From Escherichia coli (lineage in GTDB: Bacteria; Pseudomonadota; Gammaproteobacteria; Enterobacterales; Enterobacteriaceae), in assembly GCF_009931435.1 (NCBI RefSeq), contig NZ_CP043414.1: 64,000 bases of DNA; one strand, written 5' to 3'. The notes beneath the pieces are model-generated. The model searched no databases. It had not been told where the DNA came from and worked only from the letters and a program-made list of their open reading frames with translations. Position numbers and translations under genes: made by a program. Each line of letters opens with the position of its first letter. The first letter of the stretch is position 1. Of this stretch, positions 66-57,287 are shown one piece after another.

Positions 66-122
66 TCTCTCTGATGTACCAGCAGGGGTAGCCCCCCTGC
101 TTTATTCCTGGACGGAATTGTT

Positions 123-791
123 ATGAAAAAGCACCTTCTGCCTCTCGCTCTGCTGTTTGCCGGAATATCTCCGGCCCATGCGCTGGATGTCGGCGATATA
201 TCATCGTTTATGAACAGTGACAGCAGCACGCTGAGCAAAACAATCAAAAACAGTACCGACAGTGGTCGCCTCATCAATATCCGTCTCGAACGGCTCTCTT
301 CACCGCTTGACGACGGGCAGGTTATCGCAATGGACAAGCCGGATGAGTTGCTACTCACTCCCGCCAGCTTGCTGCTACCCGCCCAAGCCAGCGAAGTGAT
401 CCGCTTCTTCTATAAGGGACCAGTAGATAAAAAAGAGCGCTACTACCGCATTGTCTGGTTTGATCAGGCCCTCAGTGATGCGCAGCGCGATAATGCCAAC
501 CGCAGCGCTGTGGCCACTGCTTCCGCCCGCATCGGCACCATTCTGGTCGTCGCCCCCCGCCAGGCGAACTACCGCTTTCAGTACGCCAACGGCTCCCTGA
601 CAAATACAGGAAATGCGACGCTGCGGATCCTCGCCTACGGCCCCTGCCTGAAAGCCGCCAATGGTAAGGAGTGTAAAGAGAACTACTACCTGATGCCGGG
701 CAAGTCGCGTCGTTTTACCCGCGTGGACACGGCGGATAACAAAGGACGGGTTGCACTTTGGCAGGGTGATAAGTTCATTCCCGTGAAATAG
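123..791 (+). CDS. ecpB: EcpB periplasmic pilus chaperone
   Basis: 222-aa ORF with signal peptide [20 protein letters not shown]; recognised as EcpB/YagY; operon context with usher and adhesin. Confidence 0.9.
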
Positions 792-816
792 ATAGCTGTG
801 CAGATGGATAACGACA

Positions 817-3342: not shown

Positions 3343-4975
3343 CCTACTGATAGCGATGATAATCTTTGCGCTATTCTGGCCAGCAACCGCGCTCAGAGCT
3401 GCAGTGAGCAAAACAATCTGGACGGATGCACCGGCACGCGAGTTTGTGTTTGTCGAAAACAACTCAGACGACAACTTTTTCGTCACGCCTGGCGGGGCGC
3501 TGGATCCGCGCCTGACCGGTGCCAACCGCTGGACCGGTTTAAAATACACTGGCTCAGGAACCATCTATCAACAAAGCCTCGGCTACATTGATAACGGTTA
3601 CAACACCGGCCTTTATACCAACTGGAAGTTTGATATGTGGCTGGAAAATTCGCCGGTTTCATCTCCTTTAACTGGCTTGCGCTGCATCAACTGGTACGCA
3701 GGGTGTAATATGACCACCAGTCTTATCCTGCCGCAAACCACCGACGCCAGTGGATTTTATGGCGCGACGGTGACCAGCGGCGGCTCGAAGTGGATGCACG
3801 GCATGTTGTCAGACGCGTTTTACCAGTATCTGCAACAAATGCCCGTTGGCAGCAGCTTTACGATGACCATCAATGCCTGCCAAACCTCAGTGAACTATGA
3901 CGCCAGCAGCGGCGCGCGCTGTAAGGATCAGGCCTCCGGCAACTGGTATGTTCGCAACGTCACCCATACGAAAGCAGCAAATTTGCGGTTGATAAATACC
4001 CACTCGCTGGCGGAGGTATTTATCAACAGCGACGGAGTACCGACTCTGGGCGAAGGGAACGCCGACTGCCGGACGCAAACCATCGGCAGCCGTTCAGGAT
4101 TAAGTTGTAAGATGGTTAACTATACCCTGCAAACAAACGGGCTCAGCAACACCTCAATCCATATATTCCCGGCGATCGCCAACTCGTCGTTAGCCTCGGC
4201 CGTCGGGGCGTACGATATGCAGTTCAGTCTGAATGGTAGTTCATGGAAACCGGTGAGCAATACCGCTTATTACTACACCTTCAACGAGATGAAGAGCGCA
4301 GACTCGATCTATGTTTTCTTCTCGAGCAACTTCTTTAAGCAGATGGTGAACCTGGGGATCAGCGATATCAACACCAAAGATCTATTCAACTTTCGCTTTC
4401 AGAACACCACATCACCGGAGTCTGGCTGGTATGAATTTTCTACCTCCAACACGCTGATTATCAAACCCCGTGATTTCAGCATCAGTATTATCTCCGATGA
4501 ATATACTCAGACACCGTCGCGGGAGGGATATGTTGGCAGCGGCGAGTCGGCACTCGATTTCGGCTATATCGTAACCACCAGCGGTAAAACAGCTGCCGAC
4601 GAAGTGCTGATCAAGGTGACCGGACCCGCGCAGGTGATTGGCGGACGCTCCTATTGTGTCTTCAGCTCCGATGACGGTAAGGCGAAAGTACCGTTCCCGG
4701 CGACGCTTTCCTTTATTACCCGCAACGGAGCTACAAAAACCTACGATGCCGGGTGCGATGATAGCTGGCGGGATATGACCGATGCGCTGTGGCTAACCAC
4801 ACCGTGGACTGATATCTCTGGCGAAGTGGGGCAGATGGATAAGACCACTGTCAAATTTTCGATTCCAATGGATAACGCCATTTCGCTGCGTACGATAGAT
4901 GATAACGGCTGGTTTGGCGAAGTTAGCGCTTCAGGAGAGATTCATGTTCAGGCGACATGGCGTAACATTAACTAA
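3332..4975 (+). CDS. ecpD: EcpD pilus tip adhesin
   Basis: 547-aa ORF, signal peptide [34 protein letters not shown] upstream; overlaps ecpC by 11 nt; recognised as EcpD/YagW. Confidence 0.9.
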
Positions 4976-40977: not shown

Positions 40978-41130
40978 GTTATTAACCTCCTAAAGCCTGG
41001 CGATAACACGATAATTTGCAAATCAGATATTTCCAATATCAGCATTTGTTATCAATTTATTCTGCGCTAAGGCAACTGCCTGATAAGGTGTTAGAGTTAT
41101 AAAACCCTTCACATAAAGGAGTTGTACACC

Positions 41131-41901
41131 GTGCCTGGTTTGAAGATTACGCTTTTGCAGCAACCACTGGTGTGGATGGATGGTCCTGCCAACCTGCGCC
41201 ATTTTGATCGTCAACTAGAAGGTATTACCGGGCGCGATGTGATCGTTCTACCGGAGATGTTTACCAGCGGCTTTGCCATGGAAGCGGCCGCTTCGTCGCT
41301 AGCACAAGATGACGTAGTGAACTGGATGACAGCCAAAGCGCAGCAGTGCAATGCGTTGATTGCAGGCAGTGTTGCATTACAAACGGAGTCTGGTACGGTT
41401 AACCGCTTTTTGCTGGTTGAACCGGGCGGCACGGTACATTTTTATGATAAGCGTCATCTGTTCCGAATGGCAGATGAGCATCTGCATTATAAAGCGGGCA
41501 ATGCGCGAGTGATTGTGGAATGGCGCGGCTGGCGTATTTTGCCGCTGGTGTGCTACGACTTACGTTTTCCAGTGTGGTCGCGCAATCTCAACAATTATGA
41601 CCTCGCCATCTACGTCGCCAACTGGCCTGCACCGCGCTCTCTGCACTGGCAGGCATTGCTGACAGCCCGCGCGATTGAGAATCAGGCGTATGTGGCGGGA
41701 TGCAATCGCGTCGGCAGCGATGGCAACGGCTGCCATTATCGCGGTGACAGCCGGGTGATTAATCCACAGGGCGAGATTATCGCTACTGCCGACGCGCATC
41801 AGGCAACGCGCATTGATGCGGAGCTGTCGATGGCGGTGTTAAGGGAATATAGAGAAAAGTTTCCGGCATGGCGGGATGCGGATGAGTTTAGGTTGTGGTG
41901 A
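41131..41901 (+). CDS. yafV: YafV, omega-amidase (nitrilase superfamily)
   Basis: Track ORF starts at TTG 41122; YafV begins (V/M)PGLKITLLQQPLVWMDG, so GTG at 41131 with AAGGAG SD 9 nt upstream; nitrilase-family Cys (ILPLVCYDLRFP). Confidence 0.85.
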   Translation: MPGLKITLLQQPLVWMDGPANLRHFDRQLEGITGRDVIVLPEMFTSGFAMEAAASSLAQDDVVNWMTAKAQQCNALIAGSVALQTESGTVNRFLLVEPGGTVHFYDKRHLFRMADEHLHYKAGNARVIVEWRGWRILPLVCYDLRFPVWSRNLNNYDLAIYVANWPAPRSLHWQALLTARAIENQAYVAGCNRVGSDGNGCHYRGDSRVINPQGEIIATADAHQATRIDAELSMAVLREYREKFPAWRDADEFRLW

Positions 41902-42029
41902 GTGGGGGTTGTGTTTAGGGCCGGGGAGAGTTGGGGTATGACTACGAAAGCCCGCTCTCCTGCGACCACTTTTATCATAGGAGTGTGGAAGTGCTTTTCC
42001 ATCAATCGCGATGACGTCTCAGGGAAAGA

Positions 42030-43103
42030 TTACGAAAGCCCGCTCCCCGCAAGGACTGACGCCAGATACTTTCTGTCCATGGCTGCTTTTCGCATCTTAC
42101 GTCTTAACCCTGCCTTGAATACCTTATCATTCGTCAAAATATTAATTGCGATGTGCCGTATCCCTGAAAATAATTCTGCTGCATTTCCTCTTCTTATTTT
42201 GCAGTCGTCTTCATTCATTACCACGTCCAGACGCCAGTGCAGCTTATTCTCCACGTGCCAGTGGTTTCGGATTGCTGTGGCGAACTTCTCTGCGGTTAAA
42301 TCAGCAGAACTGATATAATATCTGACCGTCATTTCTGGCTCTTTCTTTTGTTCTGCTATTATTGACCGAAAGGAGACTGCCACGCATAATTTCTTCAGAC
42401 CTTTCCATTCAAACGTGAAATCAATAAGTTCATCAGGGACATCGCAAACAATGTGAAGACGGATTTCTTCTCTGCCGTGACTCTTTTCACTAATTGCGTA
42501 ACTGTCATGCTCTGGATTATTTAATTCTTTCAGCGGAAATTTTTCCTCGAAGCCTTTATTTAGCCGCCCCTGGTTTCCTTTTACAGCGAATAAATAATCA
42601 CCTCCCTGTTTTTGTATCTTCTCTGCAATATCTTTCTGGCAACCCATCGCATCAGTTGTGATGATTTTTCCTTTAATATCCAGCATGTTAAGAAGTTCTG
42701 GGATAGCTGTAATCTCATTGGATTTCTCATCCGTCTTGATCTGTCCGATGACCAGACTGTGCATTGTTGAGAACGCACTAATGACATGAATCGCTCCCCT
42801 GCGGCGACTCTTGTCATAAGAGTGCCGGAGCGTTTTTCCATCAATTGCAATGACGCCTTTATCATCTGAAGAATGGCAGTCACGCATCCAGTTAATAAAG
42901 CACTCGTGAAATTTTGCAGGACTGATACAGGATACAACTCTGGCAATGGTATCGTGAACAGGAATACCATTTTCAAAATCACCATATTGCTTCAAAAAAT
43001 CGAGATGTGTTTCCCCAAAATCCTCTATATCTTCCCAACCTTCTGCACCCGAAATAACGGCGCAAATAGTCAACAGTAGAATATCCGATAATTTATGTTC
43101 CAC
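42030..43103 (-). mobile_element. ISAs1-family (H-repeat-associated) transposase, intact ORF
   Basis: 357-aa ORF recognised as H-repeat/ISAs1 transposase ([39 protein letters not shown]...); lies next to the Rhs genes. Element ends (inverted repeats) not determined. Confidence 0.8.
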
Positions 43104-43310
43104 TTTCTAGGCTTGTCTGTAATCGGGGATAATAGAAATATGTTCCATCAATTTTTTAAGTTCCATTTTGTTCTCCTTAATTATGTAAGGAGTATTTGAT
43201 CATGTATAAGCAATAAAAAACAGCTTCAGGTAATGAGGAATATCTCAATTTTTAAACATAAAATGCGAATTGTTTAGTACAAAAAAGCAGCGTTACGTGA
43301 TCTTTCCCTG

Positions 43311-43414
43311 CCAGCCCCTCCGGGTTGACCTGCTCCGTCACCCGCAGAACCCTGCACAATATCCAGTCCCTTGCAGGTCATGTCACCCTGCCGCGCCGCC
43401 GGTTTTCCGCTCAT
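43311..43414 (-). pseudogene. Orphan Rhs 5' fragment (Rhs upstream region + first 22 codons fused to a short internal Rhs piece)
   Basis: Minus strand 43414 down to 43345 near-identical to the Rhs2 start ([13 protein letters not shown][C][11 protein letters not shown]) and preceded by the same upstream sequence (CATGGTTTATTCCT); 43344-43311 matches an internal Rhs segment (…[11 protein letters not shown]…) read out of frame; stop soon after. Confidence 0.55.
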
Positions 43415-43546
43415 GGTTTATTCCTTTTCTTTTACCTTACATGGCCATACAAATAGTTACCTATACTGTCTTTGAATATTGCCCTATCATTTAAAGCCCA
43501 CCTAATTTTTGCGACAGCAAAGGGATTTCTTTTTTAATCCAATCTA

Positions 43547-43939
43547 TCATTTCATTTTTTTAAAACATACGTTAATGCCATTCACACTTCCACATTCACC
43601 AAAAGCATCAAAATAAATTTCACATTTATTGTTGCCTTTCGAAATGATGCTAACCCCCCATCTTATATTGTTATATTTTTCTTTTCTGAAATACTTCATT
43701 TGCAATAAATCAATTATCTTACCCGCATAGAGATCGCTAAGTTCATTCACCACCACTTTATATCTGTATATTTCATTAAGACCTTCCTTGCTAAGCGGAA
43801 CTAACGTGGTAACATACGATGGAAGATTAACTACCTCTATCGTTTTCACGCTATCTATTCCACACAATTCATTCACTCGCCCCATCCCCAATACCGAACC
43901 AGAAAATAGAGACAATAAAACCATCAAATATTTCATCAT
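43547..43939 (-). CDS. Putative secreted immunity protein for the Rhs2 C-terminal toxin
   Basis: Track ORF starts at GTG 43951, overlapping the Rhs2 stop; ATG at 43939 has a GAGG SD. Sec signal peptide (MMKYLMVLLSLFSGSVLG), about 130 aa, AT-rich, immediately 3' of the Rhs2 toxin domain. No recognised family. Confidence 0.55.
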   Translation of the reverse strand: MMKYLMVLLSLFSGSVLGMGRVNELCGIDSVKTIEVVNLPSYVTTLVPLSKEGLNEIYRYKVVVNELSDLYAGKIIDLLQMKYFRKEKYNNIRWGVSIISKGNNKCEIYFDAFGECGSVNGINVCFKKMK

Positions 43940-43950
43940 AAAAAACCTCA

Positions 43951-46900
43951 CTATTCTGGCGTACCCGTTATTGTCATCGTCTGCAACGGTCCATCCACCC
44001 GATAAAAAGGCAGTCCACTATGAGCTCCTCTGACACACTCATCTAAAGTTTTCGCCGCACGCGATTCAATTATTGTAATAACCCTTGCCTCTTCTTTATT
44101 ATCATATTTCTTATCCGTCCGACTTAAAAGAGCCATGAAATTTTCTTTATCAAGAAGGTAATACTGTGCATGTGCAAACTCATGCCCCAAACCTAATGCA
44201 GGCGATTGTGATTTCGAGTTTAATTCAGTTGAACAAAATAAAGACGCTCTACTATTCCAATATATCGTCATATTATTCGAATTAAATCTACCATTGGTTC
44301 CTTCAATATACTCTATATTTATAGTTTCTTCAGAGCTTGATAAAAAATCTATAGCATCTTTCATTCGTGAATCTTTTTCTAAATACTTAACAGCCTGATT
44401 AAAATCACTTGGATCACCATTAACCTCGAATTTTAAACCCAAAGAATCTATAAACCGAACAGGGTTTAATGGATATTTATACAGATTCCATTCACCTCTT
44501 AGCCCGATTGGATCCTGCGTGATATACCTCCCCTGCAACGGGTCATAGTACCGGTGACGGTTGTAGTACAGCCCCGACTCCTCATCATACTGCTGCCCTG
44601 GCAGACGGTACGGCTGTTGCAGGTGCTCCGGGTTTTCCTCTCCCAGCAGGTTTCCCCACTCGTCATACTCCCCGCGCCACGCCGTTTCCCCTTCCGGGCT
44701 GATAAGCGCCTGCGGCAGCCCACGGTGGTCACAGTGGTAAAGATGAAGTTTCCTCTCCGGGATGTATTCTTCCTCCATCTGGTTGTTCATCTGTTCCGCC
44801 GTCAGCCCGCACTGCGCAAGCCATGCTTCACTCTCCGCACTCACCGCACCCGCGCGCAGTTCCCGCTCCAGCCTCCCCAGCATCACCGACAGCTCCGCCG
44901 GGAGCGTCACACCCGTGTCCTCCTGCAACACCTCCGCCAGGCTACGGTGCCGCGCCTTCGCCTGTTCGCCATTCTCTGTTTCGATTCTCAGGAGCGGCGT
45001 GAAGCTTCCCGGCTGATAAATCGTCTGGATACGTGTGGTGCCGGTCTGTACCGTCGTCAGCCTGTCACCGTCCCACCCGTACCATGTCTCCTCCGGTTTA
45101 CGCGACAGCGACATCCATCCCGTCAGGTCACGCTCCCGCCGCCACACCCGTTTTCCCGTCCTGCGGCCCAGCGGGTCGTAAAGGTAGCGGCTCTCCACCT
45201 GCGGCTCGCCGTGCTGTATCCGCGTGTAGAACACCAGACGGTGCTGGCTGTCGTAATGGTAGTGGTGGGTGCGCTCGTCGTGCATCCGTATCACCCCTTC
45301 CGGGATACGGTCCGTCTTCTCCGCCAGCCTGCCGTATTCATCGTGGCGGTAGACATAGTGCGCATCTTCCGCGATGCGGTTATCCGGCCACGCCGTGAAG
45401 GTGCTGTCCGGGTGCAGTTCCGGGTCCGGCAGCCGGTTTCCTGCCGGGTCCGTCGCATACGGGATATCAATGTCCAGGTTCGCTGCCGTGGTGTGGACGC
45501 CCGTCAGCCTTCCCGTGTCGCTGTAACGGTACTCCCGGCTCTCCTGCGGGCCGCTGATACGCACCAGTTGCCCGTTATCATTCCACGTATACTCACGGTC
45601 AAGCTGCGGAAGGTTCAGGTGCCTGCTCCGGAGCTGGCCTGTGAGGGTGTATGTGCTGGTCAGTTCATATGCGGCATTACTGCCTGCCATGCTGCCGAAG
45701 CTGCGCACCGTCTCACGGTGCAGCCTGTCCCGCGTGTACTCGACCAGCGGCGTTCCGCCCAGCTTCATCCCCGCAAGATAACCGCTGCCATACGTCAGCC
45801 ACTCCACCGGCGGCAGACCGTCCGGCTCCTGACGGGTCGCCAGCCCCTGTTCGCTGTACGCGTGCCCCGTCTCATGCTCCCACAGCATCTCCCCCGTCTC
45901 CGGGTTCTCCACCGTCTGCCGTTCGCCCGTCAGGCGGCCCTTATCGTCATAGCCGTAGTGGACCGCCACACGGTGGCCTTCACTGGTATGGCTGAGGGTG
46001 GTTAACCACCCGTGCTCATCATACTGCCACTGCTCTGCCGCTTCGCCGTTCACCGTCCGGTGCGTGATGCGGTCCGACGCATCGTAGTGCCAGAGGGTGA
46101 TAAGTCCCTCGTCTTCACTGCGGACAAGCTGCCCTGTGGCGCTGTACCGGTAACGCTGTGTCCGTCCGTCAAAGCCGCGCTGCTCCGTCAGGCGGTCCAC
46201 CGGGTCATACAGGAACGTGGACTGGCTGCCGTTCTCATTAGTCAGCGTGGTGATGCGCCCGGCGGCGTCATACCCCATGCTGCGCGTCAGACCGCCCTGC
46301 GTGGTGCTGATAGCTTTACCCCACGCATCATACTGTGTCTCACTGCGGCTGCCGTTCGGGGCAATGATAGCGGTGAGGTCGCCTGCGGCGCTGTACTCAT
46401 AACGGGTTTCACGCCCCTGCACATCCTTCTGACTGACCAGTTGACCACGCGGGTTATAACTGCTGTAAGTGCTGATGCCTTCTTCCCGGTGAACCGCCGT
46501 CCTCTGCCCGTACCGGTCGTACTCATACCGTGTCGTGTACCCCGAGCAGTCCGTGAAGGCCAGCAGTTGACCGTAGCGGCTCCATGCCATCTGTTTTGTA
46601 CTGCCCGTCGCATCCTGTATCCCTGTCGGCAGCTCACTCGCCGGGTCATCATAGCTGTACCGCGTCGTCTCACCGCTGCGCGAGGTCTCCGCCGCCAGCC
46701 TTCCCTTCTCATCATACTCCCGGCTGCTGCGAAGCCCGTCCGGGTACGTCACTGACGTCACCTGCCGCTGGCTGTTGTAGCCATACCGCACCGTCCTGCC
46801 GTCCGGCCCCGTCACCGCCGTCACCGCGCCCGACGCCATATGCAGGCTGTACTCCGTCCGCCGCCCCGCCGCATCCGTCTGCGCCTTCAGCCTCCCCGCC

Positions 46901-48207
46901 GCATCATACTCGCTGCGGGTGATGCTCCCGTCCGCATGCTCCTTCTTCACCACCCGCTTCAGGCCACCCTCGCCTTCCGTGTACAGCACCTCCCGCCTGT
47001 TCAGGCTGTCCGTGATGGTCACACGGTCCTGCCCGTACTCAAAGCGGTAGGCCAGCCCCTCCGGGTTGACCTGCTCCGTCACCCGACCGGTATCATCATA
47101 CCGGTAGCGGCTCTCCGGCCTCCCCGCATAATGGTGCGCCACCATCCGCCCGGCGTGCTCCGCATCATAAGTAAACCCGCGCACCTGCGTCCCGCTGCGG
47201 TCATACACCGCCAGCAACTCACCGCTGGCCGTGTACGTGTAGCGCGCCAGCGGCGCAGTCGGCTGTTCATCCGGGTATGCCGGGTCGTGTGTCAGCCACA
47301 CCGCCTCCAGCCGGATACCGTTATCGGCACCGTATTCTGTACCGGCGGGCAGCGTGTCGGGGAAAACCTGAGAAGAGGAAACAGAACGGGGACCGGCAGG
47401 GGAAGATAAAGACGTGGCGCGCTGTTTACGGCAGGCTTCCGCCCGCTGCGCCTGCGTGCTCAGCAACAGGTGAAAACGACGGCCCGCACCGTCCGTCCCC
47501 CCCGTCACCGCGCCCGCCACGTCACCCTCCGCTGCCCGGTGAAAGGCCAGCGTCCGACCAAAGCCATCCACCACGCCCGTCAGCACCCGGTATGCGGGCG
47601 GTTCCGGCGGCAGCACCTCGTCCGCCCCCGGCACCCGCTCCGGCCAGCTGAGTATCCACCACGGCCCCTGAAGGCTGTTTGTCGCCAGGTACACATGCGG
47701 ACTCAGGCGAACATCTTCCGGCAGCACCTGCCAGAGCGCGCTTAGCGGCTGCGAACTGTGCTGCTCCGCCCCCCCGCCCCGCGCCAGCCAGAACGACTCG
47801 CTGCGGCTGTAGCTTATCTCGCCGGGAAACAGCGGCTCAAAGTGAATGCTCCTGCCGCCGTTGTCGTTGAGTATCAGTTCCCGCTCATGAACCTGTAAGC
47901 GGATATCGAAGGGCGCTTTCCAGCCGGGGCCGAACACGCCCACCGGCGCGGGCGTCCTGGTCCGGTAACTGCTGTAAGCGCGGGAAAGAATAAACGGCAG
48001 CGGGCCGGGCAGTGCCAGGTCCGTCTCGCCCGGCAGCACCTTCGCACCCAGCACCGGGTTCACCGGGTTAGCATAGGTAATCCCTCCCGGACACACCGAG
48101 CAGGCCACTCCCGTCGGCGCACCTATCAGCACCCCTGCTGAACCCTGCACAATATCCAGTCCCTTGCGGGTCATGTCGCCCTGCCGCGCCGCCGGTTTTC
48201 CGCTCAT
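43951..48207 (-). CDS. PAAR-Rhs polymorphic toxin (Rhs2), HExxH-containing C-terminal domain
   Basis: 1418 aa; N-terminus carries a literal PAAR motif ([13 protein letters not shown]...GSAGVLIG); long YD-repeat core; core ends [27 protein letters not shown]; last about 160 aa unique, with HEFAH. Confidence 0.9.
44497..47450. repeat. Rhs core direct repeat, copy A (paired with 50623-53580)
   Basis: Track shows identical 483-aa antisense ORFs at 44554-46005 and 50680-52131, so at least 1.45 kb is nucleotide-identical between the two Rhs genes; flanking core highly similar with scattered substitutions. Outer boundaries approximate. Confidence 0.8.
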
Positions 48208-48330
48208 GGTTTATTCCTCTTCCTCTGAATAAACTTATTTTTGATGCACTAATGATTTTCAAAAGAGATTTATATTTAACGACAATTCAGCACTTTTAAT
48301 GTAAAAGATCCCCGGCTGAATGATATTCAC

Positions 48331-49323
48331 TCATTGTTTGTTATCAGAAAGTGTTTTATACAGCGGCACATATCCCACGTCTTCCACAAGACTTTGCCCC
48401 TGAGGGCTTAAAAACCAGTCCACTAGTTTTTGTGTTTCCGGTGTCGGCTTTTCGCGGGTGACCATGTAGGCATCCACCACATACGGATAAGTACCGTTGC
48501 GGATATTCTCCACCGTTGGTGCAATACCATTTATTGCCAGCAGCTTAAGATTTGGGCTTATATCCTTATTCATCTGTGTGACATAATAGCGGAAGGTGTA
48601 ACCAATTGAAGGCTGCGTATTCCGGTAGGCAATTACTTTGGTTAACACTCCATTCATAAGGCTTACTTCTGTAGATGTTCTGGCGGGTAGCATCGGTGTC
48701 TCTTTCATCACCTTTGCCAGCATCACCGTCTGGCTACCGGAATCTTCCGGACGCTGCCAGACCTGAATGCGCTCATCACTGCCACCAACCTGACTCCAGC
48801 GGGTGATTTTACCGCTGAAGATATCCCGAACCTGCTGTTCAGTAAAAGAACTGACCGGATTACTGGCGTTAACGATAAAAACAAAGGCTTCGTGGGCGAA
48901 GGGGGTATAAACCAGTTTCACCCCGGCATCGGCAGCCCGTTGTTTTTGTCCTGCGGAAGGCTGGGCAACAAAAATAACATCGGCCTGGCGCTTTATGAGA
49001 TCATTATAGGCTTCTGGTGTACGAGTCGGATACATATAATTCAAACCCGGATCTTGATGGTTATCCCCGGGGATCAAATATCGGTAAGCTGAAGCATACA
49101 GTGGATATAACGCGGTTGCACCACATACCCGGGGCCATTTATTCGAGTTATCAGTGTAGCGTAAAGTGGGTTCTCCTCGTATATTGGTTTTCTCCCAACT
49201 CACTGTTTCTTTTACGCTGTTATCGCCCCCGCCGTCTACACATCCTGACATTAATACCGTCATATAAAATAATACTGGTAACAGGCCCACCCTACGCATA
49301 CAATGATTTAATAAATACGCCAT
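48331..49323 (-). CDS. PstS-like (phosphate-binding-protein fold) putative lipoprotein, orphan
   Basis: Track ORF 48331-49365; start placed at ATG 49323 (GAGG SD 5-6 nt upstream) giving MAYLLNHCMRRVGLLPVLFYMTVLMSGC with lipobox-like LMSGC; PstS-like motifs (VIFVAQPSAGQ..., FTEQQVRDIFSGKITRWSQVGGSDERIQVW); no ABC transporter genes nearby. Confidence 0.55.
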   Translation of the reverse strand: MAYLLNHCMRRVGLLPVLFYMTVLMSGCVDGGGDNSVKETVSWEKTNIRGEPTLRYTDNSNKWPRVCGATALYPLYASAYRYLIPGDNHQDPGLNYMYPTRTPEAYNDLIKRQADVIFVAQPSAGQKQRAADAGVKLVYTPFAHEAFVFIVNASNPVSSFTEQQVRDIFSGKITRWSQVGGSDERIQVWQRPEDSGSQTVMLAKVMKETPMLPARTSTEVSLMNGVLTKVIAYRNTQPSIGYTFRYYVTQMNKDISPNLKLLAINGIAPTVENIRNGTYPYVVDAYMVTREKPTPETQKLVDWFLSPQGQSLVEDVGYVPLYKTLSDNKQ

Positions 49324-49627
49324 ATACCTCACTCTAAAATATTGATTATATAAATACATATGCATAATTATATTTACATCAAATTCTGAATGAACAATTT
49401 AAATTTAGAGAAAGTGAAATTTAATTTTTCGATACTTCCGCATACATATTCCCCTCGCTAAAAAATCATCATTCCACAATCAATCATTAATTACAACTCA
49501 ATATACATCATTTAACTTTCATTAAACTCGCAATTTATTATTACATTGTAGCCATTATGAACTGTCATCACGCACACACTCTACATACACATTAGAAACA
49601 ATATAACCCCATGAGCCATCCTCCGTT

Positions 49628-50074
49628 TCAATACTTAGTGCAGCGTGTCTTAAGGAAATTAGAAGCCACAACATCAATCTTTTCTTTTAAGACTAAATCA
49701 TCCACATAATCACAAGACAAATAGAAGTCATTACCATCGGCCATTATAAATATCCTCATAGGTAAAGATTTATCATTATCAACATGAGCATTCGTAATAA
49801 TCCAATAATAAGGAAATCTAACATTTTTTGTAGGAATACCCAATAAATCATAAGCTTTATTATTATATTCTATCGCTCCCTTAACAAACGTTGGTTTGAC
49901 CTCCTTACCAATAATGCGATGCGACGTATATTCTTCCTTCTCAGCAAACGATTGCATTAATGCCCATATAGGTTTATTTGCCAGCTCACCGTGATGAAAA
50001 ATCCGATAAAAATACACTCCTAAAAAAAATATTAAGCCTAAGCAAACCAATACCATGAGGCAGTTCTTACTCAT
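49628..50074 (-). CDS. Putative membrane-anchored immunity protein for the Rhs1 C-terminal toxin
   Basis: 148 aa; ATGA start/stop overlap with Rhs1; single N-terminal TM helix ([19 protein letters not shown]); AT-rich. No recognised family. Confidence 0.55.
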
Positions 50075-53000
50075 TGATTAAAATCCGTAAAATTAGAAGG
50101 AACAGGGCCATTCTCAGGTGAAAACAATGGAGATGTATTTGATACTCGTGATGCTATCATTTCTACAGTAGCAGGAAGATACATTGGCATTCCATTATCA
50201 CCACCTAGCGGATCAGTTGAAGTTAAAATTTCATTTATTGAATCTACTGAGACTCCCGCATGCAACATTGCCTCAATAACCATTGTTGCACAATTGTGCG
50301 TAAAATAGTTATAGTCACTTCTATCTACTTTATATTTTTCATCAATGTACTTAATCATTGCTTTCTCTTGTTCTGGCGTGGTTTTAATTGTATATATCCT
50401 CGTGCTTCTACGTTGTGCTTGTTCAGTTAAATAAGCTATGACACTCCCTCCACGTGGGGTAGCGGTTCCATAGCTATATACCCCTTTTCCAGTAAATGCC
50501 ATCGCAGAATGCCCTAATGGATTACCACTCGTGGGTCCCCCAGCAAAAATAAGGGTATCCAAACCAAGTGGATCTATATTTATAGTTGGATTCCACGGAT
50601 ATTTATAAAGATTCCATCCCCCCGCAAGCCCGATTGGATCCTGCGTGATATACCTCCCCTGCAACGGGTCATAGTACCGGTGACGGTTGTAGTACAGCCC
50701 CGACTCCTCATCATACTGCTGCCCTGGCAGACGGTACGGCTGTTGCAGGTGCTCCGGGTTTTCCTCTCCCAGCAGGTTTCCCCACTCGTCATACTCCCCG
50801 CGCCACGCCGTTTCCCCTTCCGGGCTGATAAGCGCCTGCGGCAGCCCACGGTGGTCACAGTGGTAAAGATGAAGTTTCCTCTCCGGGATGTATTCTTCCT
50901 CCATCTGGTTGTTCATCTGTTCCGCCGTCAGCCCGCACTGCGCAAGCCATGCTTCACTCTCCGCACTCACCGCACCCGCGCGCAGTTCCCGCTCCAGCCT
51001 CCCCAGCATCACCGACAGCTCCGCCGGGAGCGTCACACCCGTGTCCTCCTGCAACACCTCCGCCAGGCTACGGTGCCGCGCCTTCGCCTGTTCGCCATTC
51101 TCTGTTTCGATTCTCAGGAGCGGCGTGAAGCTTCCCGGCTGATAAATCGTCTGGATACGTGTGGTGCCGGTCTGTACCGTCGTCAGCCTGTCACCGTCCC
51201 ACCCGTACCATGTCTCCTCCGGTTTACGCGACAGCGACATCCATCCCGTCAGGTCACGCTCCCGCCGCCACACCCGTTTTCCCGTCCTGCGGCCCAGCGG
51301 GTCGTAAAGGTAGCGGCTCTCCACCTGCGGCTCGCCGTGCTGTATCCGCGTGTAGAACACCAGACGGTGCTGGCTGTCGTAATGGTAGTGGTGGGTGCGC
51401 TCGTCGTGCATCCGTATCACCCCTTCCGGGATACGGTCCGTCTTCTCCGCCAGCCTGCCGTATTCATCGTGGCGGTAGACATAGTGCGCATCTTCCGCGA
51501 TGCGGTTATCCGGCCACGCCGTGAAGGTGCTGTCCGGGTGCAGTTCCGGGTCCGGCAGCCGGTTTCCTGCCGGGTCCGTCGCATACGGGATATCAATGTC
51601 CAGGTTCGCTGCCGTGGTGTGGACGCCCGTCAGCCTTCCCGTGTCGCTGTAACGGTACTCCCGGCTCTCCTGCGGGCCGCTGATACGCACCAGTTGCCCG
51701 TTATCATTCCACGTATACTCACGGTCAAGCTGCGGAAGGTTCAGGTGCCTGCTCCGGAGCTGGCCTGTGAGGGTGTATGTGCTGGTCAGTTCATATGCGG
51801 CATTACTGCCTGCCATGCTGCCGAAGCTGCGCACCGTCTCACGGTGCAGCCTGTCCCGCGTGTACTCGACCAGCGGCGTTCCGCCCAGCTTCATCCCCGC
51901 AAGATAACCGCTGCCATACGTCAGCCACTCCACCGGCGGCAGACCGTCCGGCTCCTGACGGGTCGCCAGCCCCTGTTCGCTGTACGCGTGCCCCGTCTCA
52001 TGCTCCCACAGCATCTCCCCCGTCTCCGGGTTCTCCACCGTCTGCCGTTCGCCCGTCAGGCGGCCCTTATCGTCATAGCCGTAGTGGACCGCCACACGGT
52101 GGCCTTCACTGGTATGGCTGAGGGTGGTTAACCACCCGTGCTCATCATACTGCCACTGCTCTGCCGCTTCGCCGTTCACCGTCCGGTGCGTGATGCGGTC
52201 CGACGTATCGTAGTGCCAGAGGGTGATAAGCCCCTCGTCTTCACTGCGGACAAGCTGCCCTGCGGCGCTGTACCGGTAACGCTGTGTCCTGCCATCAAAG
52301 CCGCGCTGCTCCGTCAGGCGGTCCAGCACATCATAGGTAAACTCACTCCGGCTGCCGTTCTCGTTGGTCAGCACGGTGATGCGCCCGGCGGCGTCATACC
52401 CCATGCTGCGCGTCAGCCCGCCCTGCGTGGTGCTGACGGCCTTTCCCCACGCATCATACTGTGTCTCACTGCGGCTGCCGTCCGGGGCAATGATAGCGGT
52501 GAGGTCGCCTGCGGCGCTGTACTCATAACGGGTTTCACGCCCCTGCACATCCTTCTGACTGACCAGTTGACCACGCGGGTTATAACTGCTGTAAGTGCTG
52601 ATGCCTTCTTCCCGGTGAACCGCCGTCCTCTGCCCGTACCGGTCGTACTCATACCGTGTCGTGTACCCCGAGCAGTCCGTGAAGGCCAGCAGTTGACCGT
52701 AGCGGCTCCATGCCATCTGTTTTGTACTGCCCGTCGCATCCTGTATCCCTGTCGGCAGCTCACTCGCCGGGTCATCATAGCTGTACCGCGTCGTCTCACC
52801 GCTGCGTGAGGTCTCCGCCGCCAGCCTTCCCTTCTCGTCATACTCCCGGCTGCTGCGCAGCCCGTCCGGGTACGTCACTGACGTCACCTGCCGCTGGCTG
52901 TTGTAGCCATACCGCACCGTCCTGCCGTCCGGCCCCGTCACCGCCGTCACCGCGCCCGACGCCATATGTATCCGGTACTCCGTCCGCCGTCCCGCCGCAT

Positions 53001-54342
53001 CCGTCTGCGCCTTCAGCCTCCCCGCCTCATCATACCCGCTGCGGGTGATGCTCCCGTCCGCATGCTCCTTCTTCACCACACGCTTCAGGCCACCCTCGCC
53101 CTCCGTGTACAGCACCTCCCGCCTGTTCAGGCTGTCCGTGATGGTCACACGGTCCTGCCCGTACTCAAAGCGGTAGTCCAGTCCCTCCGGGTTGACCTGC
53201 TCCGTCACCCGCCCGGTATCATCATACCGGTAGCGGCTCTCCGGCCTCCCCGCATAATGGTGCGCCACCATCCGCCCGGCGTGCTCCGCATCATAAGTAA
53301 ACCCGCGCACCTGCGTCCCGCTGCGGTCATACACCGCCAGCAACTCACCGCTGGCCGTGTACGTGTAGCGCGCCAGCGGCGCAGTCGGCTGTTCATCCGG
53401 GTATGCCGGGTCGTGTGTCAGCCACACCGCCTCCAGACGGATACCGTTATCGGCACCGTATTCTGTACCGGCGGGCAGCGTGTCGGGGAAAACCTGAGAA
53501 GAGGAAACAGAACGGGGACCGGCAGGGGAAGATAAAGACGTGGCGCGCTGTTTACGGAAGGCTTCCGCCCGCTGCGCCTGCGTGCTCAGCAACAGGTGAA
53601 AACGACGGCCCGCACCGTCCGTCACCCCCGTCACCGCGCCCGCCACGTCACCCTCTGCCACCCGGTGGAAAGTCATCGTCCGACCAAAGCCATCCACCAC
53701 GCCCGTCAGTACCCGGTATGCGGGTGGCTCCGGCGGCAGCACCTCGTCCACTTCCGGCACCCGCTCCGGCCAGCCGAGCACCAGCCACTGCCCGGTTGTG
53801 CTGACAGCCATCATATAGGTGTGTGGACTCAGGCGGACCGCTTCCGGCAGCGCCCGCCAGAACCGCGCAAGCGGGTGTCCTTTATGCTGTTTCAGCACCC
53901 CGCCCCGCGCCAGCCAGAACGACTCGCTGCGGCTGTAGCTTATCTCGCCGGGAAACAGGGGTTCAAAGTGGATGCTCCGGCCACCGCTGTCGTTAAGTAT
54001 CAGTTCACGCTCACAAATCTGTAAGCGGATGTCGGAGGGGGCTTTCCAGCCGGGGCCGAATATCCCCACCGGGGCTGGCGTCTTCGTCCGGTAACTGCTG
54101 TAGGCGCGGAAAAGGATGAACGGCAACGGGCCGGATAGTGCCAGGTCGGTTTCAGCAGGCAGTACCTTCGCTCCCAGCAGCGGGTTTACCGGATTGCCAT
54201 ATTTCGGCGTGGCTTCCCCTGTGGGACACACCGAGCAGGCAACCCCCGTCGGCGCACCTATCAGCACCCCTGCTGAACCCTGCACAATATCCAGTCCCTT
54301 GCGGGTCATGTCACCCTGCCGCGCCGCCGGTTTTCCGCCCAT
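50071..54342 (-). CDS. PAAR-Rhs polymorphic toxin (Rhs1), His/Cys-containing C-terminal domain
   Basis: 1423 aa; PAAR motif at N-terminus ([13 protein letters not shown]...); YD-repeat core; core ends [27 protein letters not shown]; last about 162 aa unique (…[11 protein letters not shown]…[11 protein letters not shown]…); GAAGGA SD; 75 nt downstream of vgrG. Confidence 0.9.
50623..53580. repeat. Rhs core direct repeat, copy B (paired with 44497-47450)
   Basis: See copy A; same orientation, about 6.1 kb apart. Confidence 0.8.
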
Positions 54343-54417
54343 GAATCAATTCCTTCTGCTTTTAATATGGTTCATCTGGCCACTGCACCAGTTCCGTTTT
54401 AATTTTTTGCACCTGAC

Positions 54418-56559
54418 TCAAAATTGCCGCATATCCGGCATTCCGGGGGGTAAATCTTTCGGCACAGGCGCATCCGGCACAGGTTGTGTGGCACCACAGT
54501 TCCAGTTAATCACCGGCGCATCACCGTTCACATCCGACTCCCCTTCCAGATGAATGTGCGTACCATTAAGAAATATGCTTCCGTCCTTCGTCAGCACCAG
54601 CCTTGCCTTACCACAGCAGAGTTCAAGATGCTCACCGGCAGAATAAACTGCTGTTTGTCCGGTGTTTTCCTTCATCGTCTTGCCCACCGAGAAGGTGACG
54701 TTATTCCCTACATTGACGCTGTAGCCCATTCCCACCATCAGTGATTTATGCAGCCCTACCTGTGAGGACTGCAACAACGCCACCGAGGTATTCATAATGC
54801 CGCCTACCGTCGTCTGGTAAGCCACGCCCACCGTCAGCGCACGAATGATCCCCACCTTTTCAACCTGGTTTGATCCCACTTTGATAATCTGGTTACTGCC
54901 CACCGTTTCCACCTGGTTGACACCAACCGTCTGTATCTGATTAACGCCAATGTTCTGGATCTGGTTATTGGTAACGGTGATCGCCTGGTTGTTACCTATT
55001 TTTTCGGCATGGTTGTTTATCACATCAGTGGTGCGGTTATTCAGCACCTCGGTGTTCATGTTCTTCTGCGCGTGGATGTAGACCTGTTCTTTCCCTGTCG
55101 CATCGTCAAACTTCAGTTCATTAAACCCGCTGCCCTTATAGGTTTTCGAACGAATGGTCATCTGCGTCTTTGTTCCCGGCAGGCTGCCGGGGGTGCGGTT
55201 TTCCTGGTGGTAGGTACGCCCCATAATAATCGGCTGGTCCGGATCGCCGTTGAGGAAGTCCACAATGACCTCCTGACCCACACGCGGTATCGCCAGGTTA
55301 CCAAACCCGGTGCCTGCCCACGCCTGTGCCACACGGATCCAGCATGAACTGTCCTGGTTTGACGGGTTATAACGGTCCCAGTTAAATTTCACCCGCACGC
55401 GGCCATGTTCATCACAGAAGATTTCTTCTCCTGCCGGTCCCGTCACGACGGCGCTCTGCGGGCCATCCACCAGCGGTTTCAGCAACGGCTGTGGCCGCCA
55501 TGTTCTGTCTGCCGGTATTACCGCAAAGTGGTTATTCAGCGTGGTACCTGAACCCCTGCGTCCCGGCACCGCCTGCGGCTGCTCGCCGTGCAGTTCACTT
55601 GCCACCACCTGCCATTCCCGGTTCAGGTTCGCCTGCGGATGCCCCGTCAGCGCAATTCGCCGTCCCGGCCATATCTCCGGAGAACGGCTTGTTCCGCGCG
55701 CCACTTCTGCGTTGTTTCGCCAGCCATCCATCTGCCAGCGGGCAAAGTTCTGCCCGTGGGCACCCTTGAAACGTCCGGGGTAGTCATACACTTCATACTG
55801 TGTGCGCTGGTAATCCTGGTACTGGCCTTCCTGATCAAAACGCCCTGCCCAGCCGGGTCGTTTAAAGGTGTAGTCCTTGGTCACCACGGAAGAAGGGCGG
55901 ATTTGTGCGCTGTAGCGGAACTGGCTGATGCATAGGGTGCTCACCTCGGTACGGGTGTTCGGATTCCAGGGGATCTCAAAGGACTCCGGCAGATAACGCA
56001 CGGTGTCGCACAGGACCAGGCTCTGGTCGGTACTTTTTTGCGCGTGCTCCTCATAAAAGAAGATGCCTTCCTCCGCCGCCATCCGGCACAGGAAATCGTA
56101 ATCGGTTTCGCCGTACTGGACACAAAACTCACGGGAAGGATGCGGCTCGCTGAACAGCGGACTCCACTCGGTCACCCCGTTTTCTTTCAGGATCGTCGCG
56201 AGTATGCTTTCGATGTCCTCATTCTGGAAGATACGGAAGTTCTGGCGCAGCCCTGTGCGCCACAGCGGTGGGCATACCTTCATGCTGTACAGCATCTGGT
56301 TTTTGTCGTTCTCCCCCAGTTCAAACCAGGTCACCACACCTTTCACCCGGCGCTGTACGTCATCGCCCTGCCATATCGTCAGGTAGGCCATTTTGTCCAG
56401 CACCTGCGCAAATTCAAGGGAGAGAAACTGCTGGCTGACCAGAGAGAGATCGAGGGAAAAGAGCGAAGAGAGTGACTGGTTCAGATGAAAGGAGACCACC
56501 GCAAACGCGTCCGGTGGCAGGCCGTCCACTTCCAGCGTGAAACGTAATCCGGTTGACAT
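54418..56559 (-). CDS. vgrG: VgrG (TssI) spike protein
   Basis: 713 aa; gp27/gp5-like region and C-terminal beta-helix repeats (VGVNQVETVGSNQIIKVGSNQVEKVG); no large C-terminal effector extension. Confidence 0.9.
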   Translation of the reverse strand: MSTGLRFTLEVDGLPPDAFAVVSFHLNQSLSSLFSLDLSLVSQQFLSLEFAQVLDKMAYLTIWQGDDVQRRVKGVVTWFELGENDKNQMLYSMKVCPPLWRTGLRQNFRIFQNEDIESILATILKENGVTEWSPLFSEPHPSREFCVQYGETDYDFLCRMAAEEGIFFYEEHAQKSTDQSLVLCDTVRYLPESFEIPWNPNTRTEVSTLCISQFRYSAQIRPSSVVTKDYTFKRPGWAGRFDQEGQYQDYQRTQYEVYDYPGRFKGAHGQNFARWQMDGWRNNAEVARGTSRSPEIWPGRRIALTGHPQANLNREWQVVASELHGEQPQAVPGRRGSGTTLNNHFAVIPADRTWRPQPLLKPLVDGPQSAVVTGPAGEEIFCDEHGRVRVKFNWDRYNPSNQDSSCWIRVAQAWAGTGFGNLAIPRVGQEVIVDFLNGDPDQPIIMGRTYHQENRTPGSLPGTKTQMTIRSKTYKGSGFNELKFDDATGKEQVYIHAQKNMNTEVLNNRTTDVINNHAEKIGNNQAITVTNNQIQNIGVNQIQTVGVNQVETVGSNQIIKVGSNQVEKVGIIRALTVGVAYQTTVGGIMNTSVALLQSSQVGLHKSLMVGMGYSVNVGNNVTFSVGKTMKENTGQTAVYSAGEHLELCCGKARLVLTKDGSIFLNGTHIHLEGESDVNGDAPVINWNCGATQPVPDAPVPKDLPPGMPDMRQF

Positions 56560-56768: not shown

Positions 56769-57287
56769 TTATGCTTCCAGCGGTGCGCGCCAGTCGTCGG
56801 CACCGGAGGTGCCAGATTTGACGTGTTCCCACTCAATCTTGCGGTAGGCCAGTGAAACTTCGAGCAACTGGGTGAACTCGCGTTTCGCCGGGTCCTGGCA
56901 ATGCGGCATATGCAGTTTCATATCGACAATCGTCGAATCAGTCAGGCGGGTGGTGAAATAATGCTCCTGTTTGCCTTCCACAGATGTACGCCACCAGTGC
57001 AGTTCAGTGGTTGGCAGCATTTCACCGGAGGCCAGTGCGTTGTACATCAGCGGAACCGCTTTGTTCAGCGCCACGGTAAAAATGAACGGCTTGTGAGCAC
57101 GCTGACCCGCAGGCTGACCGGACTGAGGATCGGTCGGGACAGTAACGTTATGCAGGAATTCCTGCACCAGCATCTCGTCTTCGTGCCCCTGCACATAGAT
57201 GTTGCCGACAGAATCAGCGGTAAATGCACCTGCAGTAATATTTCCCTGGGTCTGACCAGTGATGGAGATATAACACGGTGTTGGCAT
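56769..57287 (-). CDS. hcp: Hcp (TssD) tube protein
   Basis: 172 aa, Hcp1-family sequence (MPTPCYISITGQTQGNITAGAFTADSVGNIYVQGHEDEMLVQEF...); directly upstream of vgrG. Confidence 0.85.
   Translation of the reverse strand: MPTPCYISITGQTQGNITAGAFTADSVGNIYVQGHEDEMLVQEFLHNVTVPTDPQSGQPAGQRAHKPFIFTVALNKAVPLMYNALASGEMLPTTELHWWRTSVEGKQEHYFTTRLTDSTIVDMKLHMPHCQDPAKREFTQLLEVSLAYRKIEWEHVKSGTSGADDWRAPLEA

What the first reader, a model, noticed from the sequence alone, without database searches (positions are those of the whole stretch)
43289..43440. Orphan Rhs 5' fragment with upstream region downstream of the Rhs2 immunity gene
On the minus strand, 43414-43345 reproduces the Rhs upstream sequence and first 22 codons ([25 protein letters not shown]), joined to about 34 nt matching an internal Rhs segment out of frame and then unrelated sequence, giving a 41-codon dead-end ORF. 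This looks like a scar of past Rhs recombination or deletion. If the upstream sequence is a promoter it may still drive transcription toward the ISAs1 transposase.
Basis: seen in the sequence. Interest (0 to 1): 0.4.

Follow-up and report, generated by a model that had tools for sequence, protein, structure and literature searches.

The report
Dead Rhs gene stub beside IS
This is the leftover first ~80 bases (plus a 34-base internal scrap) of a third Rhs toxin gene that was destroyed by a deletion and cut off by an ISAs1 insertion sequence; it is an ordinary, already-annotated pseudogene scar, not a working gene or promoter.

Summary
On the minus strand, 43429-43341 copies the ribosome-binding site and first 74 nt of both Rhs genes (94% over 89 nt to Rhs2). 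43344-43311 copies Rhs core nt 1123-1156 exactly, out of frame. The dead-end ORF has 46 codons, not 41.

In about 1,070 of 5,426 complete E. coli genomes, the same 76-nt spacer and 5' end continue into an intact Rhs gene after the dsORF-h1 immunity gene. In about 987 genomes the gene is cut after nt 41 by an ISAs1. The window's form, with identical junctions, occurs in one RefSeq complete genome, where it is annotated as a partial pseudogene. Its exact 46-aa product is on record on 132 public contigs as "core protein".

The stub is therefore a single inherited scar of a lost third tandem Rhs gene. The promoter idea is not supported. Only 15 nt of upstream sequence are shared, the promoter scan is at chance level, and the transposase here carries a nonsense codon.

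Ordinary and already known; low interest.

The parts
43415..43490 (-). 76-nt spacer between the canonical dsORF-h1 stop (TAA 43493-43491) and the stub ATG. It contains the Shine-Dalgarno AAGGA at 43426-43422.
   Evidence: The same spacer precedes intact 'RHS element core protein' genes in L005 and L004 and in about 1,070 E. coli genomes. Only its last ~15 nt resemble the Rhs1/Rhs2 upstream regions.
43339..43414 (-). Rhs 5' coding remnant (ORF nt 1 to about 76, [25 protein letters not shown]).
   Evidence: 94.4% over 89 nt to the Rhs2 start and 89.6% to the Rhs1 start. The peptide matches positions 1-34 of NCBIfam NF041261 RHS_core at 36 bits, against a cut-off of 2000.
43339..43344 (-). Deletion junction in the microhomology CGGGTG, joining Rhs nt ~76-82 to nt ~1121-1126 (about 1,045 nt lost).
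   Evidence: Side-by-side sequences of the stub, the Rhs2/Rhs1 5' ends, the internal sites and the intact L004/L005 genes.
43311..43344 (-). 34-nt internal Rhs core piece (Rhs2 ORF nt 1123-1156), read out of frame.
   Evidence: 100% identical to 47052-47085. Identical in the intact L005 gene.
43274..43414 (-). 46-codon dead-end ORF (stop TAA 43276-43274, which lies inside the IS end).
   Evidence: The exact product is on record as 'core protein'/'hypothetical protein' on 132 contigs. The homologous stretch in E. coli 2020CK-00188 is annotated as a partial pseudogene.
42020..43310 (-). Complete 1,291-bp ISAs1-family element (ISEc1-like, the Rhs 'H-rpt'). IRL is 43310-43293 and IRR is 42020-42037. 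The transposase ORF runs 43166->42030 with TGG->TAG at codon 20 (43109-43107).
   Evidence: The IR pair matches 16/18 and 20/26. The ends read CAGGGAAAGAT.... The ORF hits NF033564 ISAs1 transposase at E 2e-124 and Pfam DDE_Tnp_1. No target-site duplication is present (flanks GGGGCTGG and AGACGTCA).
41961..42019 (-). 59-nt internally deleted remnant of an older H-rpt/ISAs1 copy. Its yafV-side end is the same truncated end seen in other strains.
43547..43939 (-). dsORF-h1 (immunity gene of the Rhs2 toxin tip). It is frameshifted here (A8->A7), giving 130 aa instead of 149 aa.
48134..48222 (-). Start of Rhs2 (gene 43951-48207). It is a direct-repeat partner of the stub, 4,793 nt upstream.
   Evidence: 84/89 identical, longest exact run 40 nt.
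54269..54364 (-). Start of Rhs1 (gene 50071-54342). It is a second direct-repeat partner, 10,928 nt upstream.
   Evidence: 70/74 identical in the coding part, longest exact run 35 nt.

Best explanation
The stub is a non-functional pseudogene scar: the 5' remnant of a third tandem Rhs gene. The ancestral order at this T6SS/yafV locus was VgrG - Rhs - toxin tip h1 - dsORF-h1 - 76-nt spacer - second full Rhs gene - its tip and immunity gene - truncated H-rpt - yafV.

In the lineage of this window the downstream Rhs gene was destroyed by two lesions. The first was an illegitimate deletion of about 1,045 nt between two CGGGTG microhomologies (nt ~80 to ~1122). The second was an ISAs1/ISEc1 element whose left end now abuts core nt 1156. 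Everything from nt 1157 through the toxin tip, the immunity gene and most of the older H-rpt copy is gone.

The complete IS has no target-site duplication, and its right end abuts an internal site of the older H-rpt. The loss is therefore best explained by an IS-end-mediated adjacent deletion, or by IS-IS recombination, after insertion into the core. That step and the order of the two lesions are inferred.

Shown: the homologies, the junctions, the IS boundaries, the intact counterpart in other genomes, and the identity of the junctions across independent assemblies. Any transcription of the stub is most likely passive read-through from the Rhs2-dsORF-h1 operon.
For: - Homologies and frames.
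- IS boundaries, inverted repeats, 1,291-bp length and absence of a target-site duplication.
- Transposase identity.
- The same spacer and 5' end continue into an intact Rhs gene after dsORF-h1 in about 1,070 of 5,426 complete E. coli genomes. L005 shows this at the same yafV locus and L004 at the pptA locus. The sequences line up base for base.
- An alternative truncation of the same gene, nt 41 joined to an ISAs1 end, occurs in about 987 genomes.
- The window's form has identical junctions, with a single synonymous SNP, in seven sequences aligned (the window and six independent assemblies) out of eight public places, all in the context VgrG/Rhs - dsORF-h1 - stub - ISAs1 - yafV - ivy - fadE. 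This points to one inherited event.
- PGAP annotates the stub as an incomplete pseudogene in 2020CK-00188.
- The peptide matches only positions 1-34 of the 1,261-position RHS_core model.
- There is no promoter signal above chance, no Rfam family, and no unusual RNA structure (z -0.5).
Against: - No intermediate was found among 5,426 complete genomes. There is no Rhs with an intact 5' end and ISAs1 at nt 1157, and no Rhs with the internal deletion alone. The order and exact mechanism of the two lesions are therefore inferred.
- The stub keeps a good Shine-Dalgarno and ATG, and gene callers name it, so translation of a 46-aa peptide cannot be excluded by sequence alone.
- Expression was not measured.
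Confidence: 0.85

Rival explanations
1. The stub and its upstream spacer act as a promoter or leader that drives transcription into the ISAs1 transposase.
For: The stub and the transposase lie on the same strand, and no terminator-like site was found between them on that strand. The spacer precedes intact Rhs genes elsewhere, so it could carry whatever start signals those genes use.
Against: - Only about 15 nt upstream of the ATG are shared with Rhs1/Rhs2.
- No promoter-like site lies in the spacer. The regional count is 4 against 3.5 +/- 2.0 expected, and the only nearby match (43386-43358, 9/12) lies inside the coding remnant.
- The transposase has a nonsense codon at position 20 in the window.
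- A 7-bp hairpin covers the transposase Shine-Dalgarno (dG -8 kcal/mol, z -2.45). From general knowledge of IS elements, such a hairpin typically blocks translation of externally initiated transcripts.
Confidence: 0.05
2. The stub is kept because it is useful as a homology anchor. As a direct repeat of the Rhs1/Rhs2 starts, it would promote RecA-dependent deletion or duplication of the Rhs2-immunity module, or capture of incoming Rhs genes.
For: The stub is a same-orientation repeat with exact runs of 40 nt (Rhs2) and 35 nt (Rhs1), at 4.8 and 10.9 kb. Rhs loci are known rearrangement and deletion sites (PMC10711316; L001 and L005 deletions).
Against: - The predicted product for the common short stub (vgrG spacer joined to stub and ISAs1) is absent from 5,426 genomes.
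- The homology is short.
- Persistence is explained by simple inheritance of a neutral scar, since the junctions are identical everywhere.
Confidence: 0.07
3. The 46-codon ORF is a real small-protein gene, named 'core protein' in databases, that carries the N-terminal KPAAR motif.
For: It has a good SD-ATG spacing (AAGGA 8 nt upstream). The exact product is called in many assemblies.
Against: - Residues 26-46 come from an out-of-frame core scrap and from the IS inverted repeat.
- There is no Pfam family.
- The peptide matches only positions 1-34 of RHS_core.
- The alternative short form would encode a different 25-aa tail, so nothing beyond the inherited N-terminus is conserved.
- PGAP calls it a pseudogene.
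Confidence: 0.02
4. The stub is an assembly or sequencing artefact, a mis-join among Rhs repeats.
For: Rhs and IS repeats are classic sources of mis-assembly.
Against: The same junctions occur in the six independent public assemblies aligned, out of eight places retrieved, including complete chromosomes.
Confidence: 0.01

Closest known systems
Rhs element composites with H-rpt (ISEc1, ISAs1 family) downstream of the core (Hill laboratory descriptions of RhsB/C/E and the min-5 H-rpt fragment; recalled from memory, papers not retrievable here)
   Same: A 1,291-bp H-rpt/ISAs1 copy lies downstream of the Rhs core-extension and its dsORF, in the same orientation. Tandem and partly deleted H-rpt copies are present. 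An H-rpt remnant lies next to yafV, near min 5.
   Different: Here the H-rpt end directly abuts scraps of an Rhs core. This shows that it truncated a further Rhs gene rather than sitting in unique sequence.
Orphan rhs 'C-terminal tips' downstream of intact rhs genes (Jackson et al. 2009, PMC2935791; summarised in PMC3032704)
   Same: A partial rhs fragment lies downstream of, and co-oriented with, a full rhs gene. It was produced by rearrangement within the rhs array.
   Different: Tips are 3' core fragments that carry a toxin domain and a cognate immunity gene, and they can be re-activated by recombination. This stub is a 5' fragment (nt 1-~80 plus nt 1123-1156) with no toxin, no immunity gene and no conserved core motif.
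IS-associated truncation or adjacent deletion pseudogenes, and Rhs-anchored deletions at the E. coli T6SS locus (PMC10711316)
   Same: A gene remnant ends exactly at an IS terminal inverted repeat with no target-site duplication. Neighbouring strains show other deletions with one end in an Rhs core (L001, L005).
   Different: Nothing of substance. This is another instance at a different junction.

Membership tests
RHS element core protein (NCBIfam NF041261) / functional Rhs toxin | Full-length match to the ~1,261-position core model above the curated cut-off (2000 bits) | tested here: not met
   The stub peptide scores 36 bits and matches model positions 1-34 only. Rhs2 scores 2603 bits.
RHS element core protein (NCBIfam NF041261) / functional Rhs toxin | DUF6531, YD/RHS repeats and the RHS-associated core domain followed by a toxin tip | tested here: not met
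   No Pfam family hits the 46-aa product. Rhs1 and Rhs2 have all three.
Orphan rhs C-terminal tip / immunity module | A 3' core fragment with a variable C-terminal toxin region, followed by a small immunity ORF | tested here: not met
   The fragment consists of ORF nt 1-~80 and nt 1123-1156 only, followed directly by the ISAs1 end.
ISAs1-family insertion sequence (ISEc1 / H-rpt) | One DDE transposase ORF of the ISAs1 type | tested here: met
   NF033564 at E 2e-124, 415 bits against a cut-off of 70. Pfam DDE_Tnp_1 and DDE_Tnp_1_assoc also hit. The ORF is inactivated by TAG at codon 20.
ISAs1-family insertion sequence (ISEc1 / H-rpt) | Length of about 1.2-1.5 kb, bounded by imperfect terminal inverted repeats beginning CAGGG (family features recalled from ISfinder and reviews) | tested here: met
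   42020-43310 is 1,291 bp. The IRs match 16/18 and 20/26, and both ends read CAGGGAAAGAT.
ISAs1-family insertion sequence (ISEc1 / H-rpt) | Flanking 8-10 bp target-site duplication of a simple insertion (recalled) | tested here: not met
   The flanks are CGGAGGGGCTGG and AGACGTCATCGC, with no repeat. This is consistent with a later adjacent deletion or recombination. It does not argue against the element being an IS.
Sigma-70 promoter upstream of the stub | -35/-10 hexamers with 16-18 nt spacing in 43415-43490 | tested here: not met
   No site lies in the spacer, and the regional count is at chance.

The most novel reading that the evidence does not exclude
The stub is not neutral. Its retained spacer, Shine-Dalgarno and first ~25 codons, kept in two independent truncated forms in roughly a fifth of E. 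coli, might serve as a docking site. That site would let incoming Rhs genes or toxin modules be re-captured by homologous recombination. Alternatively, it might give a translated leader that couples dsORF-h1 read-through to ISAs1 expression.
Probability: 0.03. Interest if true: 0.4.

Novelty: already known. Interest (0 to 1): 0.08.

Why it matters
It matters little in itself. It documents one more way in which Rhs arrays decay: IS truncation combined with a microhomology deletion. It also shows that this locus once held three tandem Rhs genes.

Its practical value is for annotation. The 46-aa 'core protein' calls in public assemblies are pseudogene fragments. The stub junctions (CGGGTG at 43339-43344; core|IS at 43311/43310) are clean lineage markers for typing variants of the T6SS/yafV locus.

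Tried and rejected
- Progenitor with an intact 5' end and ISAs1 at core nt 1157. A chimeric query found none in 5,426 genomes. Three genomes have an ISAs1 about 270 nt further into an Rhs N-terminal gene.
- Intermediate with the internal deletion but no IS. None was found; the single 81% hit is a different deletion.
- Recombinant in which the vgrG-Rhs spacer is joined to the short stub and the IS, which would show that the stub acts as a recombination partner. Zero genomes.
- Exact long-form junction in 100,044 species-representative genomes. Zero.
- Rfam families in 41900-44100. None at E <= 1.
- RNA structure of the stub region. Not different from shuffles (z -0.5).
- Promoter scan. At chance.
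- The classical Rhs/H-rpt papers (Zhao et al. 1993; Wang et al. 1998) could not be retrieved. What I say about them is from memory.
- Jackson et al. 2009 does not discuss 5' fragments or IS elements.

Full report
**Observation**

I compared 43100-43700 with the whole window. All coordinates below are on the minus strand.

| Stub segment | Matches | Identity | E-value |
|---|---|---|---|
| 43429-43341 | Rhs2 start, 48222-48134 | 94.4% over 89 nt | 8e-35 |
| 43434-43341 | Rhs1 start, 54364-54269 | 89.6% over 96 nt | 6e-30 |
| 43344-43310 | Rhs2 internal, 47085-47051 | 100% over 35 nt | 1.5e-12 |
| 43345-43311 | Rhs1 internal, 53212-53178 | 97% over 35 nt | 6.5e-11 |

- In ORF coordinates the first piece is 15 nt of upstream sequence plus nt 1-74. 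The second is nt 1123-1156 of Rhs2.
- The second piece is read out of frame. The native frame gives [11 protein letters not shown]; the stub gives [11 protein letters not shown].
- The ORF runs 43414->43274 and has 46 codons, not 41.
The codon counts were slightly off, and the shared "upstream sequence" is only the Shine-Dalgarno region.

- The sequence after the 34-nt scrap is not unrelated. Base 43310 is the first base of the terminal inverted repeat (CAGGGAAAGATCA...) of a complete ISAs1-family element spanning 42020-43310.
- This element is exactly 1,291 bp. Its inverted repeats are 43310-43293 and 42020-42037 (16/18; 20/26).
- Its single ORF (43166->42030) matches NCBIfam ISAs1 transposase at E 2e-124 and Pfam DDE_Tnp_1. 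It carries TGG->TAG at codon 20.
- From memory, 1,291 bp is the length of the classical Rhs-associated "H-rpt".
- There is no target-site duplication. The flanks are GGGGCTGG and AGACGTCA.
- Beyond the right end lie 59 nt of an older, internally deleted H-rpt copy (41961-42019), then yafV.
- The stop codon of the stub ORF lies inside the IS end.

**Context**

| Feature | Coordinates |
|---|---|
| Hcp | 56769-57287 |
| VgrG | 54418-56559 |
| Rhs1 | 50071-54342 |
| Small ORF | 49628-50074 |
| PBP-like ORF | 48331-49365 |
| Rhs2 | 43951-48207 |
| dsORF-h1 | 43939-43547 |
| Stub | 43414-43274 |
| ISAs1 | 43310-42020 |
| H-rpt remnant | 42019-41961 |
| yafV | 41122-41901 (+ strand) |

All features except yafV are on the minus strand, and ivy and fadE follow yafV. 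The fadE-yafV segment is 95-99% identical to every complete E. coli genome, with a best match of 98.8%. The source is therefore an Escherichia coli-like strain.

**Comparative evidence**

- *Intact form.* The 135-nt query made of the unique part of the spacer plus the 5' piece is covered at 80% or more in 1,070 of 5,426 complete E. coli genomes. In nearly all listed cases it lies under an annotated "RHS element core protein".
  - In strain P13-6 (L005), at the same yafV locus, dsORF-h1 is followed after 76 nt by an intact 4,233-nt Rhs gene, then small ORFs, an ISAs1 and yafV.
  - Strain 88-3493 (L004) shows the same dsORF-h1 - spacer - intact Rhs order at the pptA locus.
  - The spacer and 5' end align base for base with the stub. 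The intact genes contain the 34-nt scrap at nt ~1130-1165.
- *Short truncated form.* In about 987 genomes the same gene is truncated differently. Nt 1-41 are joined directly to an ISAs1 end of a different end-sequence variant.
- *The window's long form.* It is in one RefSeq complete genome, 2020CK-00188, where PGAP annotates it as an incomplete pseudogene.
  - The exact 46-aa product is on record on 132 contigs under names such as "core protein".
  - Eight retrieved places all show Rhs - dsORF-h1 - stub - ISAs1 - yafV - ivy - fadE, preceded by VgrG where the locus reaches that far.
  - In the window and the six of those assemblies that I aligned, the junctions are identical apart from one synonymous SNP.
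  - One assembly (L013) is 99.5% identical to the window over 9.8 kb.
  - The long form is therefore one historical event that has been inherited.

**Mechanism**

*Shown:*
- The stub equals the spacer and the first ~80 nt of a gene that is intact elsewhere.
- That piece is joined at a CGGGTG microhomology (43344-43339) to nt ~1123-1156 of the same core.
- It ends exactly at an ISAs1 inverted repeat that has no target-site duplication.

*Inferred:*
- An ISAs1 copy inserted into the core of the downstream Rhs gene.
- An IS-end-mediated adjacent deletion, or recombination with the older H-rpt next to yafV, then removed the rest of the core, its toxin tip, its immunity gene and most of the older H-rpt.
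- A separate microhomology deletion removed nt ~80-1122.
- I could not order these events. Neither intermediate exists among the complete genomes.

**Functional readings**

- *Promoter.* No sigma-70-like site lies in the spacer, and the regional count is at chance. Only about 15 nt upstream are shared with the two intact genes. There is no Rfam family and no unusual RNA structure. The transposase is a pseudogene here. Its Shine-Dalgarno sits in a 7-bp hairpin, which by general knowledge of IS elements would blunt translation from read-through transcripts.
- *Recombination substrate.* The stub is a co-oriented repeat of the Rhs2 and Rhs1 starts, with exact runs of 40 and 35 nt. However, the predicted deletion product for the common short stub is absent from 5,426 genomes.
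- *Small protein.* Residues 26-46 derive from an out-of-frame scrap and from the IS end. The short form would have a different tail.
- The best reading is a neutral scar, transcribed if at all by read-through from Rhs2-dsORF-h1.

**Comparison with the known, and verdict**

- Partial rhs fragments downstream of intact genes are well known, but those are 3' tips with toxin and immunity genes (PMC2935791; PMC3032704). This is a 5' stub and fails every defining feature of a tip or of a functional Rhs protein.
- H-rpt/ISAs1 copies downstream of Rhs cores, and Rhs-anchored deletions at this T6SS locus, are also known (PMC10711316; L001 and L005).
- The sequence itself is already in public databases and is flagged as a pseudogene.
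- Verdict: observation confirmed, "scar" interpretation supported, promoter idea not supported. The feature is already known and of low interest (0.08).

Noticed in passing
window 43547-43939 (-), A-run near 43560: The dsORF-h1 immunity gene after Rhs2 is frameshifted (A8->A7). This gives 130 aa instead of the canonical 149 aa, which would end at 43491. The same A7 is in L013. A8 is in L001 and L006-L012. It may be a real immunity-gene truncation or a homopolymer sequencing error shared by related assemblies.
   Followed up: partly
window 43107-43109 (-): The ISAs1 transposase has TGG->TAG at codon 20. The change is shared with L012 and L013, and the codon is intact in L001 and L006-L011. This IS copy is therefore dead in the window's sublineage.
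   Followed up: yes
window 43173-43192: A 7-bp inverted repeat (CUCCUUA-N6-UAAGGAG on the minus-strand RNA) covers the transposase Shine-Dalgarno (dG -8 kcal/mol, z -2.45). A -10-like CATAAT lies in its loop. This looks like the classic IS device against activation by outside transcription.
   Followed up: partly
window 41961-42019: A 59-nt internally deleted remnant of an older H-rpt/ISAs1 copy lies between the complete IS and yafV. In L002 and L005, a single IS lacking its last ~11 nt ends at the same yafV-side junction.
   Followed up: partly
window 48331-49365 (-): A 344-aa ORF with a PBP_like_2 / PstS-family-like domain (Pfam E 5e-32; below the NCBIfam cut-off) sits between the Rhs1 immunity-position ORF and Rhs2. 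In L011 a Sel1-repeat protein occupies that place. Its role in an Rhs array is unclear.
   Followed up: no
window 50074-54342 (-), residues 1306-1362 of Rhs1: The Rhs1 C-terminal tip has a weak Pfam hit to Lnb_N (E 4e-6). The Rhs2 tip has no Pfam hit.
   Followed up: no
L001 6953-9100; L005 11653-14762: Other strains carry deletions that fuse an Rhs core directly to T6SS genes (tagH in L001; an AAA ATPase in L005). These remove much of the secretion system, as reported for ST410 in PMC10711316.
   Followed up: no
L004 about 4120-4280; H126-H128: There are further cases of an ISAs1 left end abutting internal Rhs core sequence, or truncating a DUF6531 (Rhs N-terminal) gene. ISAs1/Rhs-core junctions therefore recur at several positions.
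   Followed up: no
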